Part shown: positions 1,534 through 2,897 of the stretch, piece by piece
Numbering within the stretch: position 1 is the stretch's first letter
Layout: each line of letters begins with the position of its first letter
Assembly (NCBI RefSeq): GCF_003790525.1
Contig: NZ_CP033635.1
DNA length: 64,000 bases
Reading direction: 5' to 3' (one strand)
Origin: Escherichia coli
GTDB lineage: Bacteria; Pseudomonadota; Gammaproteobacteria; Enterobacterales; Enterobacteriaceae
Notes under the pieces: generated by a model
Told to the model about the DNA's origin: nothing
The model's database searches: none
Seen by the model: the letters and a program-made list of their open reading frames with translations, nothing else
Position numbers and translations under genes: made by a program

Positions 1534-1880
1534 AAATTCTCCTGTAAAACGCGGAATATACCGTACCTCTTAGCGGGGAAAAACAGGGTTATGCGGCAAC
1601 GTCGAAATTAAATGTGATCTGCCACGCCTTTTATCACAAAAGTGTCTCCGGAAGTACGATGCAAATTCGCCTGGCAAAATAAGGATAATCAACATATTAC
1701 GAATCGCTGCACACCTGTGCTGATGACTACTACGCAGAGAAACAAATGTGCAAGAGAAAGCGCTATTTCTCCCCATGCAAAGAGTGAAAAATCGCTTTGA
1801 AAGGCCATCATGATGGGGTTATATCAGATCAAGCGGTGAGAAAGCGTATTTGCACAAATGTGCAGAACCAGGAGGCGGCA

Positions 1881-2828
1881 ATGGAAAACAGTGACGATAT
1901 CCGTTTGATTGTGAAGATTGCCCAACTCTATTACGAACAGGATATGACGCAGGCGCAAATCGCGCGCGAACTGGGTATTTACCGCACCACCATCAGCCGC
2001 TTGCTTAAACGAGGCCGCGATCAGGGAATTGTCACCATCGCCATCAACTATGACTACAACGAAAATCTCTGGCTGGAGCAGCAACTGAAGCAAAAGTTTG
2101 GCCTGAAAGACGTTGTGGTGGTGTCGGGAAATGATGAGGATGAAGAGACTCAACTGGCGATGATGGGGTTACACGGCGCGCAACTGCTGGATCGCTTGCT
2201 GGAACCTGGCGATATTGTCGGTTTTTCCTGGGGCCGCGCGGTGAGCGCACTGGTTGAAAACTTGCCGCAGGCGGGGCAATCGCGGCAGTTAATTTGCGTG
2301 CCGATTATTGGCGGCCCGTCCGGTAAACTCGAAAGCCGCTATCACGTAAACACATTAACCTACAGCGCGGCAGCGAAGCTGAAAGGGGAATCGCATCTCG
2401 CGGATTTTCCGGCTCTGCTGGATAACCCATTAATTCGTAATGGGATCATGCAGTCTCAGCACTTTAAAACCATCTCTGCCTACTGGGATAATCTGGATGT
2501 CGCCCTGGTGGGAATTGGCTCACCGGCCATTCGCGACGGCGCTAACTGGCATGCGTTTTATGGTGGTGAAGAGAGTGACGACCTGAATGCCCGCCAGGTT
2601 GCTGGCGATATTTGCTCGCGCTTTTTTGATATTCACGGCGCAATGGTTGAAACGAATATGAGCGAAAAAACACTCTCTATCGAAATGAATAAATTAAAGC
2701 AGGCACGGTATTCCATTGGCATTGCCATGAGCGAAGAAAAATACAGCGGAATTGTTGGTGCACTGCGTGGAAAATATATTAATTGTCTGGTAACGAATAG
2801 CAGCACAGCTGAACTATTACTGAAATAA
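1881..2828 (+). CDS. sorC: SorC-family transcriptional regulator of the sorbose operon
   Basis: ORF track gives 1797..2828; ATG at 1881 (MENSDDIRLIVKIAQLYYEQDMTQAQIARELGIYRTTISRLL) is preceded by AGGAGG at 1869-1874. HTH plus sugar-binding domain typical of the SorC family; first gene of a sorCDFBAME-ordered cluster. Confidence 0.85.
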   Translation: MENSDDIRLIVKIAQLYYEQDMTQAQIARELGIYRTTISRLLKRGRDQGIVTIAINYDYNENLWLEQQLKQKFGLKDVVVVSGNDEDEETQLAMMGLHGAQLLDRLLEPGDIVGFSWGRAVSALVENLPQAGQSRQLICVPIIGGPSGKLESRYHVNTLTYSAAAKLKGESHLADFPALLDNPLIRNGIMQSQHFKTISAYWDNLDVALVGIGSPAIRDGANWHAFYGGEESDDLNARQVAGDICSRFFDIHGAMVETNMSEKTLSIEMNKLKQARYSIGIAMSEEKYSGIVGALRGKYINCLVTNSSTAELLLK

Positions 2829-2897
2829 AAATCTTCCCGATGTTTACCGTAATAAAAATTACGGCGGGTCCCTATTATCTAAAATCAGGAGTCTGTT

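What the first reader, a model, noticed from the sequence alone, without database searches (positions are those of the whole stretch)
1743..1864. Repeated CAAATGTGCA motifs and a palindrome just upstream of sorC: candidate operator
The 10-mer CAAATGTGCA occurs twice (1743-1752 and 1855-1864). The second copy is part of the inverted repeat TGCACAAATGTGCA (1851-1864), which sits between the likely promoter and the sorC ribosome-binding site (AGGAGG at 1869-1874). A palindrome overlapping the 5' UTR of an autoregulated SorC-family repressor-activator gene is the expected layout for its operator.
Basis: seen in the sequence. Interest (0 to 1): 0.3.

Follow-up and report, generated by a model that had tools for sequence, protein, structure and literature searches.

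The report
SorC operator boxes flanking sor promoter
The repeated motif is real and is very probably the DNA site bound by SorC, the regulator of the L-sorbose operon; three or four copies at fixed distances bracket the promoter, which is an ordinary kind of gene switch, but I found no paper that gives its sequence.

Summary
CAAATGTGCA occurs only at 1743-1752 and 1855-1864 in the 64 kb window, and the second copy lies in the perfect dyad TGCACA-AA-TGTGCA (1851-1864).

In 29 orthologous sor control regions from Enterobacterales, including K. pneumoniae, the boxes are nearly invariant while the DNA between them drifts. The spacing is fixed:
- S2 to S4 is 143 bp.
- S3 to S4 is 112 bp in 26 of 30 regions, and 101 bp in Kluyvera.
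- The -10-like block to S4 is 33 bp in 30 of 30.

Distant homologues that share SorC's recognition helix (YRTTISR) carry the same TGCACA-NN-TGTGC box beside their genes. Homologues with HR(S/T)TISR carry ATCACA-NN-TGTGAT instead. The box has the 5-6-5 layout of the Bacillus subtilis DeoR box and differs by one base per arm.

The only promoter-like element conserved across species (TTGAAA-17-TATATC, 1797-1825) puts box S4 at about +26, next to the ribosome-binding site.

The operator reading is therefore supported. I infer that tetrameric SorC bridges the upstream and downstream boxes and loops out the promoter. Binding and the transcription start remain untested. This is a new member of a known kind and of modest interest.

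The parts
1849..1864 (.). Box S4, the proximal operator TTGCACAAATGTGCAg. It has a 5-6-5 dyad layout with core GCAC-N4-GTGC. Its centre, 1857.5, is at about +26 from the predicted start, and it lies 5 bp from the Shine-Dalgarno sequence.
   Evidence: Sequence. 13 of 16 columns are invariant in 15 representative species. The box is present in 30 of 30 sor regions, always 33 bp from the -10-like block.
1742..1753 (.). Box S3, a conserved half-box aCAAATGTGCAa. It is a direct repeat of the right half of S4; its left arm is not conserved. Its centre is at about -86.5.
   Evidence: 7 of 12 columns are invariant. It lies 112 bp from S4 in 26 of 30 regions. In Kluyvera it is a full palindrome, TGCACAAACGTGCA, 101 bp from S4.
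1708..1721 (.). Its centre is at about -117.5, 31 bp upstream of S3.
   Evidence: 1 mismatch. The core GCAC/GTGC is conserved while the central 4 nt vary among species. It lies 143 bp from S4 in 26 of 30 regions.
1633..1646 (.). Box S1, a candidate degenerate box aTCACAAAAGTGTc. CACAAAAGTG is nearly invariant. Whether SorC binds it is uncertain.
   Evidence: (family D1). It lies 218-220 bp from S4 in 28 of 30 regions. It resembles the TCACA-type boxes of homologues with an HR(S/T)TISR helix.
1797..1825 (+). Predicted sigma-70 promoter: -35 TTGAAA (1797-1802), a 17 bp spacer, then a weak -10 TATATC (1820-1825). The predicted start is near 1832.
   Evidence: In the position-weight scan of 28 regions it is the only promoter-like pair that recurs at the same alignment column, in the top four in 24 of 28. 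The stricter scanner finds no consensus promoter in 1534-1880. No transcription-start data were available.
1816..1830 (+). Nearly invariant 15 nt block GGTTATATCAGATCA, which holds the -10-like hexamer and a GATC.
   Evidence: Mean identity 0.96, with 7 of 15 columns invariant. It is 33 bp from S4 in 30 of 30 regions.
1870..1875 (+). Shine-Dalgarno sequence AGGAGG of sorC.
   Evidence: Sequence; it lies 5 nt before the ATG at 1881.
1881..2828 (+). sorC, the SorC-family regulator (315 aa).
   Evidence: E-value 1.9e-183 to PDB 2W48, K. pneumoniae SorC. Pfam Sugar-bind domain plus an N-terminal helix-turn-helix.
1687..1699 (+). Candidate IHF site AATCAAcataTTA (matches WATCARNNNNTTR), lying between S1 and S2.
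   Evidence: One of 6 consensus matches in 64 kb. AATCAR-N4-TTA is conserved in the alignment and in K. pneumoniae and Sodalis. This is a consensus match only.
1609..1630 (.). Candidate CRP site AAATGTGATCTgccACgCCTTT, with a perfect left half and a weak right half. Which promoter it serves is unknown.
   Evidence: TGTGATC and CCTTT are conserved. My comparison with the CRP consensus AAATGTGATCTAGATCACATTT, which I quote from memory, gives 16 of 22 matches. The predicted position, about -211 from the sorC start, is atypical.

Best explanation
The repeated motif is the operator of SorC.

The unit is a 16 bp dyad, TTGCA-N6-TGCAA, with core GCAC-N4-GTGC. One SorC dimer would recognise it through its N-terminal helix-turn-helix. 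The sor control region carries an array of these boxes at fixed distances:
- S2, a full box (1708-1721).
- S3, a half-box 31 bp downstream of S2 (1742-1753).
- S4, a near-perfect box 112 bp further on (1849-1864), in the 5' leader, 33 bp past the -10-like block and next to the ribosome-binding site.
- Possibly S1, a degenerate box (1633-1646).

The following steps are inferred, not shown. SorC is a tetramer made of two dimers. Without L-sorbose, a tetramer, or cooperating tetramers, holds the upstream boxes and S4 together. This loops out the weak promoter (TTGAAA-17-TATATC) and sits in the path of RNA polymerase at about +26. The result is repression of the operon and of sorC itself. With inducer, the contact between dimers weakens, as shown for CggR. 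S4 and the loop are released. SorC still bound at S2 and S3 (about -117 and -86) then helps RNA polymerase at the weak promoter. That would account for SorC's known dual role as repressor and activator.
For: Shown here:
1. The boxes are concentrated in this region. Two of the three exact GCAC-N4-GTGC cores in 64 kb lie here, and only 3 matches to the 14-mer dyad with up to 2 mismatches exist in the window.
2. Phylogenetic footprint. In 15 representative species, S4 has 13 of 16 invariant columns and S3 has 7 of 12, against 2 of 148 for the rest of 1600-1865. In S2 the arms are conserved while the centre varies, which is the pattern expected for a site bound by a dimer.
3. Rigid geometry. S2 to S4 is 143 bp and S3 to S4 is 112 bp in 26 of 30 regions, and the -10 block to S4 is 33 bp in 30 of 30. 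Kluyvera has only two full boxes, 101 bp apart, which is 11 bp or about one helical turn less. The module keeps this form in Sodalis, where the upstream neighbour is a LysR gene rather than rluF.
4. The box tracks the recognition helix. Seven independent distant homologue loci (33-49% identity) with an xYRTT[IV]SR helix carry TGCACA-NN-TGTGC(A/T), or a one-mismatch TGTAC variant of it, in intergenic DNA beside the regulator or its operon. Homologues with HR[ST]TISR carry ATCACA-NN-TGTGAT instead.
5. The gene is SorC itself.

From the literature:
- The B. subtilis DeoR box is TTGAA-N6-TTCAA, arranged as a palindrome plus a direct repeat of its 3' half, and is bound by a tetramer (PMC11229326).
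- The CggR operator lies at +32 to +77 in the leader of an operon whose first gene is cggR.
- SorC is a tetramer, and a model based on cooperativity between dimers has been proposed to explain its repressor and activator roles (PMC2943609).
- SorC acts as activator with sorbose and repressor without it (PMC12817954, citing Wöhrl 1990).
Against: - There are no binding data and no mapped transcription start. The promoter is only the best conserved weak match.
- DeoR and CggR half-operators lie about two helical turns apart, and the DNA-binding domains in the SorC crystal were judged to fit sites about 70 Å apart. Here the box spacings are 31 and 112 bp, so the family's compact tetramer-on-tandem-sites geometry is not met, and looping or bending has to be assumed.
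- 112 and 101 bp are each about n + 0.6 helical turns, not an integer, so the loop geometry is unclear.
- S3 is only a half-box in most species.
- S1 has T instead of G at the outer positions and may belong to another protein.
- The correlation between helix and box rests on about 11 lineages. One homologue of the His type (L051) showed no clear box.
Confidence: 0.8

Rival explanations
1. The boxes are SorC sites but work independently, with no loop. S4 alone represses by blocking polymerase in the leader, as the CggR operator does. S2 and S3 are a separate activator site.
For: The CggR precedent for a leader operator. The 31 bp spacing between S2 and S3 is about three helical turns, which would suit one tetramer on a bent duplex. 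The fixed spacings could simply reflect each site's own fixed distance to the promoter.
Against: Kluyvera keeps just two full boxes flanking the promoter. Its spacing differs by 11 bp, which is equally consistent with keeping phase to the promoter or to S4. In the DeoR family, single half-operators are not bound stably without the partner site.
Confidence: 0.35
2. The proximal palindrome works mainly as an RNA hairpin in the sorC 5' leader, next to the Shine-Dalgarno sequence, affecting translation or mRNA stability rather than acting as a protein-binding DNA site.
For: The leader can form UUGCAC-AAAU-GUGCAG, with a centroid energy of -7.9 kcal/mol. In most species the 3' arm abuts GGAG.
Against: The fold is no better than shuffled sequence (z = -0.99; 31 of 200 shuffles fold as well). 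The arms are invariant in sequence with no compensatory changes. The same box recurs upstream of the predicted promoter (S2, S3) and over the -35 and spacer of promoters in Firmicute homologues.
Confidence: 0.05
3. The motif is bound by a different host factor, for example CRP (AAATGTG resembles the CRP flank plus core), and not by SorC.
For: AAATGTG is shared with the CRP left half-site. A better CRP-like site exists at 1609-1630.
Against: No TCACA lies six bases after TGTGC at S3 or S4 in any species. The dyad has the opposite polarity, CACA..TGTG. The box follows SorC-type regulators into Firmicutes and changes with their recognition helix.
Confidence: 0.04
4. Chance repeat with no function.
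For: Short palindromes are common; one search lists 8 inverted pairs in 367 nt. 2 of 100 shuffles of the window give two copies of a 10-mer.
Against: Near-invariance and fixed spacing in 30 regions whose spacer DNA has diverged.
Confidence: 0.01

Closest known systems
Bacillus subtilis DeoR operator of dra-nupC-pdp (SorC family, helix-turn-helix subclass)
   Same: Same protein subfamily; the best NCBIfam hit of this SorC is the DeoR model. The box has the same 16 bp 5-6-5 dyad layout: TTGAA-N6-TTCAA versus TTGCA-N6-TGCAA, one base different per arm. The grammar is also the same: a full palindrome plus a direct repeat of its 3' half, bound by a tetramer.
   Different: The two DeoR halves are about 22 bp apart and overlap the -35 region, at -60 to -21. 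Here the boxes are 31 and 112 bp apart and bracket the promoter. DeoR is a pure repressor encoded outside the operon it controls; SorC is both repressor and activator and is the first gene of its operon.
Bacillus subtilis CggR operator of the gapA operon (SorC family, winged-helix subclass)
   Same: The regulator is the first gene of the operon it controls. The operator lies in the transcribed leader (+32 to +77), compared with S4 at about +20 to +33. Tetramer binding is cooperative and the inducer breaks the contacts between dimers.
   Different: The DNA-binding domain is of a different type and the motif is unrelated (CGGGAC-N5-TGTC repeats). It is one compact 45 bp operator with no upstream boxes.
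E. coli gal operon operators OE and OI (GalR loop; from my own knowledge of the system)
   Same: Two operators bracket the promoter about 113 bp apart and are joined by a protein bridge that loops out the promoter. The S3-to-S4 distance of 112 bp is nearly the same.
   Different: GalR belongs to the LacI family, needs HU, and has an unrelated motif. Looping by SorC is only inferred here.
E. coli LsrR (SorC family) at the lsrR-lsrA region
   Same: It is a homologous tetrameric regulator with a similar helix, LGLTRLKVSRLL, and it is autoregulated.
   Different: The reported LsrR boxes are AT-rich and have no TGCACA dyad (PMC8487509). The effector is also different.

Membership tests
Operator of a SorC-family (DeoR-like helix-turn-helix subclass) regulator | Dyad-symmetric box sized for a helix-turn-helix dimer (about 15-16 bp, 5-6-5 layout) | tested here: met
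   TTGCA-CAAATG-TGCAg at 1849-1864 compared with the DeoR box TTGAA-N6-TTCAA.
Operator of a SorC-family (DeoR-like helix-turn-helix subclass) regulator | Located in the control region of the regulator's own operon | tested here: met
   All boxes lie in the 347 bp region upstream of sorC, the first gene of a sorCDFBAME-type cluster.
Operator of a SorC-family (DeoR-like helix-turn-helix subclass) regulator | Conserved in orthologous control regions while the flanking DNA diverges | tested here: met
   30 regions compared: S4 has 13 of 16 invariant columns against 2 of 148 for background.
Operator of a SorC-family (DeoR-like helix-turn-helix subclass) regulator | Motif co-varies with the recognition helix among paralogues | tested here: met
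   Homologues with a YRTT[IV]SR helix carry TGCACA..TGTGC boxes (seven distant homologue loci plus the SorC clade; one of them, L027, has a TGTAC variant in each box). Homologues with HR[ST]TISR carry ATCACA..TGTGAT (3 loci, one of them truncated); one locus is unclear.
Operator of a SorC-family (DeoR-like helix-turn-helix subclass) regulator | Two half-operators about two helical turns apart, matching the compact tetramer seen for DeoR and CggR | tested here: not met
   Spacings in this window are 31 bp and 112 bp. Only the Firmicute homologue L027 has two boxes 20 bp apart.
Operator of a SorC-family (DeoR-like helix-turn-helix subclass) regulator | Direct, sequence-specific, inducer-sensitive binding by the purified regulator | not testable with these tools
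   This needs gel-shift or footprinting experiments with SorC, with and without L-sorbose or sorbose-1-phosphate.
Promoter-bracketing looped operators (gal, lac and ara type) | Operators on both sides of the promoter | tested here: inconclusive
   True if the predicted promoter at 1797-1825 is the real one. No transcription-start data.
Promoter-bracketing looped operators (gal, lac and ara type) | A change in spacing preserves helical phase | tested here: inconclusive
   112 bp versus 101 bp in Kluyvera (11 bp less), with 111 and 113 bp in two other genera. This is suggestive but amounts to a single natural indel event.
Promoter-bracketing looped operators (gal, lac and ara type) | A multivalent regulator able to bridge two sites | not tested
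   SorC is described as a tetramer in the literature (PDB 2W48; PMC2943609). I did not examine this here.

The most novel reading that the evidence does not exclude
The sor control region is a fixed-geometry nucleoprotein switch. One tetrameric regulator alternates between a loop of about 112 bp that represses the promoter (upstream boxes joined to a leader box) and an upstream-bound form that activates it, possibly helped by a conserved IHF-type bend and a distal CRP-type site. Within this subfamily, the residue at the start of the recognition helix (Tyr versus His in xR(T/S)TISR) sets the outer base of the box (G versus T). That would give a readable specificity code for hundreds of uncharacterised SorC-type sugar regulators.
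Probability: 0.3. Interest if true: 0.5.

Novelty: new member of a known kind. Interest (0 to 1): 0.35.

Why it matters
SorC gave its name to a widespread family of sugar and quorum-sensing regulators, and its crystal structure has been known since 2009. A 2010 paper in the held literature says operators in the family had been identified only for B. subtilis DeoR and CggR. No held paper contains this box sequence.

A concrete box and a site map at fixed distances make it possible to test directly how SorC both represses and activates, a question open since 1990. The box also offers a way to predict targets of many unannotated homologues.

About half of complete E. coli genomes carry the sor operon. 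Recent papers link it to high-risk lineages and to fitness, so its control region has some practical interest.

It remains a conventional kind of element: an operator in front of an autoregulated gene.

Tried and rejected
- **RNA hairpin at S4.** Folding 1832-1895 gives z = -0.99, no better than shuffled sequence, and there is no covariation.
- **CRP site at S3 or S4.** No right half-site is present in any species.
- **Sigma-54 promoter at TTTGCA.** There is no GG 12 nt upstream, and that stretch is not conserved (by inspection).
- **Alternative upstream promoters.** Candidates near 1684-1698 appear in some species only.
- **LsrR boxes as a parallel.** The reported boxes are AT-rich and unrelated.
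- **Literature search for a published SorC operator or transcription start.**
  - Wöhrl 1990 and de Sanctis 2009 are not held.
  - Searches for the sequence string, RegPrecise and transcription start sites found nothing relevant.
  - A prior description in those papers or in RegPrecise therefore cannot be excluded.
- **First homologue search.** It returned only relatives at 70% identity or more. The search of cluster representatives was needed to reach distant ones.
- **Failed or uninformative look-ups.** P0124 has no contig on record. L051 and L052 have too little upstream DNA to be informative.
- **Genome-wide search for further boxes (the SorC regulon).** Within the window, no further box lies in or near the sor genes.

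Full report
**1. The observation**

The window starts with the end of a lysC-like gene and a small ORF. rluF follows on the minus strand (661-1533). A 347 bp intergenic region comes next, and then a gene cluster on the plus strand:
- a SorC-family regulator (ATG at 1881, ending at 2828)
- a sorbitol-6-phosphate dehydrogenase
- four mannose/sorbose-type PTS subunits
- a 413 aa putative dehydrogenase that matches only zinc-type dehydrogenase models, below their cut-offs, at the position where sorE lies in the K. pneumoniae operon (my recollection)

This is the sorCDFBAME arrangement.

The regulator is 88% identical to K. pneumoniae SorC (PDB 2W48), and 74 of its first 75 residues, which include the DNA-binding domain, are identical.

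CAAATGTGCA is at 1743-1752 and 1855-1864, exactly as reported, and nowhere else in the 64 kb. The exact repeat is 11 nt long. TGCACAAATGTGCA at 1851-1864 is a perfect 6 + 2 + 6 dyad.

**2.

A search for the dyad with mismatches finds only three matches in the window. Two are in this region: the reported one, and TGCACAccTGTGCt at 1708-1721. The stripped core GCAC-N4-GTGC occurs exactly three times in 64 kb, at 1709, 1852 and 25479.

A fourth, weaker relative is aTCACAAAAGTGTc at 1633-1646 (family D1).

**3. Conservation**

A scan of reference genomes for relatives of the protein returned 44 loci. Twenty-seven are sor-type loci from Enterobacterales: Escherichia, Pseudocitrobacter, Citrobacter, Klebsiella, Raoultella, Mangrovibacter, Serratia, Pantoea, Cedecea, Entomohabitans, Kluyvera and Enterobacter. 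I added K. pneumoniae itself and a Sodalis genome.

In every region S4 is present. It reads TTTGCACAAATGTGCAG in most, and TTTGCACATATGTGCAG/A in Kluyvera and Sodalis.

S3 reads CAAATGTGCAA with a variable left arm.

S2 keeps GCAC and GTGC while its four central bases change (ACCT, ATCT, ATAT, AAAC, AAAG, AAAA, AAAT). That pattern is what a site read by a protein dimer looks like. It is not what an RNA stem looks like.

| Element (15 representative species) | Invariant columns |
|---|---|
| S4 | 13 of 16 |
| S3 | 7 of 12 |
| Remainder of 1600-1865 | 2 of 148 |

**4. Geometry**

| Distance (30 regions) | Result |
|---|---|
| S2 to S4 | 143 bp in 26 |
| S3 to S4 | 112 bp in 26 |
| -10-like block to S4 | 33 bp in 30 |
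| S1 to S4 | 218-220 bp in 28 |

The exceptions are informative. Serratia has one extra base and Sodalis one fewer. The two Kluyvera species lack everything upstream of S3. In them S3 is a full palindrome (TGCACAAACGTGCA), and an 11 bp deletion places it 101 bp from S4.

In Sodalis the module keeps this form although its upstream neighbour is a LysR-type gene rather than rluF. The whole control region of about 290 bp therefore travels with the operon.

**5. Promoter**

The strict scanner finds no consensus sigma-70 promoter in the region. A position-weight scan of all 28 aligned regions finds one pair that recurs at the same column: TTGnnn-17-TATATC. In the window this is TTGAAA at 1797-1802 and TATATC at 1820-1825. 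It ranks first in about half of the species and in the top four in 24 of 28.

The -10-like hexamer lies inside a nearly invariant 15 nt block, GGTTATATCAGATCA (1816-1830).

The hexamer lacks the final T, so this would be a weak promoter that depends on an activator. That fits a positively controlled operon.

With a start near 1832, the box centres are:
- S4 at about +26
- S3 at about -86.5
- S2 at about -117.5

No DNA is left for a promoter between S4 and the ribosome-binding site, so S4 must lie at or downstream of whatever promoter drives sorC. The start site itself is a prediction.

**6. Is it SorC that binds?**

Three Firmicute homologues (43-48% identity) have the identical helix-turn-helix segment LGIYRTTISR(L/M)LK(R/K). 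In about 7 kb of DNA each, their only good match to the box lies directly upstream of the regulator:
- L026: TTGCACAATTGTGCTT
- L028: CTGCACAATTGTGCTT
- L027: TTGCACAATTGTACTG and GTGTACATTTGTGCAA, 20 bp apart

In L026 and L028 the box overlaps the -35 and spacer of TATAAT-type promoters.

I then searched cluster representatives, read their helices and fetched contigs.

| Locus | Protein | Helix | Box found |
|---|---|---|---|
| L047 | P0141 | YRTTISR | TGCACAAATGTGCT before the operon; TGCACAAATGTGCA before the next gene |
| L048 | P0182 | YRTTISR | AGCACATTTGTGCA |
| L053 | P0146 | YRTTVSR | ATGCACAAAAGTGCAA before a PTS operon |
| L054 | P0123 | YRTTISR | TTGCACAAATGTGCAT, plus a CAAATGTGCAA half-box next to the ribosome-binding site |
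| L049 | P0127 | HRSTISR | ATCACATTTGTGAT and TTCACAAGTGTGAT; sits beside a divergent sorbose-type PTS operon |
| L050 | P0138 | HRTTISR | AATCACAAATGTGATA |
| L052 | P0131 | HRSTISR | ...CATTTGTGAT, cut by the contig end |
| L051 | P0129 | HRSTISR | nothing clear |

(Boxes.)

The box therefore follows this branch of the family across phyla, and it changes when the helix changes. This is the strongest argument that the regulator itself reads the box.

**7. Comparison with known operators**

The 2024 structural study of the family gives the DeoR operator as ATTGAACAAAATTTCAAT...TTTACATATGTTCAA. It is a palindrome plus a direct repeat of its 3' half, is bound only as a whole by a tetramer, and has the half-site TTGAACA. 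The SorC box is TTGCACA...TGTGCAA: the same 5-6-5 layout with one base changed per arm. The S2-plus-S3 pair repeats the grammar of a palindrome followed by a 3' half repeat.

The CggR operator lies at +32 to +77 in the leader of an operon that begins with cggR. That is a precedent for the position of S4.

The difference is spacing. The DeoR and CggR halves are about two helical turns apart, and the DNA-binding domains in the SorC crystal were judged to fit sites about 70 Å apart. Here the distances are 31 and 112 bp.

The 112 bp distance across the promoter is close to the 113 bp separating the gal operators OE and OI, which I cite from my own knowledge.

**8. Mechanism**

Shown: the boxes, their conservation, their spacing, and their link to the recognition helix.

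Inferred: SorC dimers bind each box. In the absence of sorbose, a tetramer or cooperating tetramers join the upstream boxes to S4. This loops out and blocks the weak promoter, repressing the operon and sorC itself. The inducer loosens the contacts between dimers, as it does in CggR. S4 is then freed, and SorC at S2 and S3 activates transcription.

Two observations fit phase-dependent cooperation: the minimal Kluyvera arrangement of two full boxes flanking the promoter, and the 11 bp change in spacing. They fit equally well a simple requirement that S3 stay on one face of the helix relative to RNA polymerase.

I put about 0.8 on "these are SorC operators" and about 0.4-0.5 on looping.

**9. Rival explanations**

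- **RNA hairpin.** The fold is no better than shuffled sequence, shows no covariation, and cannot explain the upstream copies.
- **CRP.** The dyad has the opposite polarity, and no species has a second half-site.
- **Chance.** The conservation excludes it.
- **Independent sites without a loop.** This remains a serious alternative.

**10. Novelty**

A 2010 paper states that operators in the family were known only for DeoR and CggR. The 2024 study mentions SorC only as a structure. Two recent E. coli sorbose papers do not discuss the operator. No held paper contains the box sequence.

The 1990 and 2009 SorC papers and RegPrecise could not be consulted.

This is a predicted operator for a known regulator, with an unusually clear multi-box layout. 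It is a new member of a known kind and of modest interest.

Noticed in passing
window 1609-1630: AAATGTGATCTgccACgCCTTT has a perfect CRP-type left half and a weak right half. TGTGATC and CCTTT are conserved in nearly all species. It would lie about 211 bp upstream of the predicted sorC start. By my own unscanned reading of the minus strand, it would lie about 72 bp from a possible divergent rluF start, with a TATATT -10 at 1560-1555. Which promoter it serves is unknown.
   Followed up: partly
window 1687-1699: AATCAAcataTTA matches the IHF consensus WATCARNNNNTTR. It is one of 6 matches in 64 kb and is conserved between boxes S1 and S2 in all species that have the long control region.
   Followed up: partly
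window 1659-1670: There is a second kind of conserved palindrome, TGCAAaTTcGC; in some species it is the perfect TGCAA-NN-TTGCA. It differs from the SorC box in arm order and length. From memory it resembles a CytR-type TGCAA repeat. It remains unexplained.
   Followed up: no
window 1816-1830: The block GGTTATATCAGATCA is more strictly conserved than a -10 hexamer would need. It contains a GATC, as does the conserved TGTGATC at 1613-1619. Possible Dam methylation or another protein contact was not examined.
   Followed up: no
window 1754-1762 and 1838-1846: GAGAAAGCG is repeated, once just after S3 and once just before S4. This holds only in the Escherichia and Pseudocitrobacter group, so it is probably not a general feature.
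   Followed up: partly
window 2847-2864: A hairpin, CCGTAAT-aaaa-ATTACGG, lies in the 69 bp sorC-sorD spacer with no run of T after it. It could be an mRNA processing or stability element that sets the ratio of regulator to enzymes.
   Followed up: no
window 1534-1568: The region is present in 2872 of 5426 complete E. coli genomes. A sor-negative genome matches only the first 35 nt next to rluF, so the left edge of the sor segment is near 1568. In Citrobacter, Klebsiella, Raoultella and Kluyvera the operon also sits next to rluF.
   Followed up: partly
L026, L028, L054 (Firmicute loci): The closest non-enterobacterial relatives of SorC (43-49% identity, same helix, same box) are not next to sorbose genes. 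They face a divergent pair of genes: a ribose-5-phosphate-isomerase-like protein and a GFO/IDH/MocA oxidoreductase. The sugar pathway is unknown.
   Followed up: partly
L049 2815-3003: A 42%-identical homologue with a His-type helix faces a divergent sorD-like and sorbose-type PTS operon. The intergenic region has ATCACATTTGTGAT and TTCACAAGTGTGAT boxes 93 bp apart.
   Followed up: partly
L054 2324-2481: A full box and a CAAATGTGCAA half-box next to the ribosome-binding site are 144 bp apart. This is close to the 143 bp S2-to-S4 distance in Enterobacterales and may be coincidence.
   Followed up: no
L046 2521-2679: In Sodalis the sorD position is occupied only by a 52 aa ORF, so the dehydrogenase gene seems to be lost or truncated there, while the control region is intact.
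   Followed up: no
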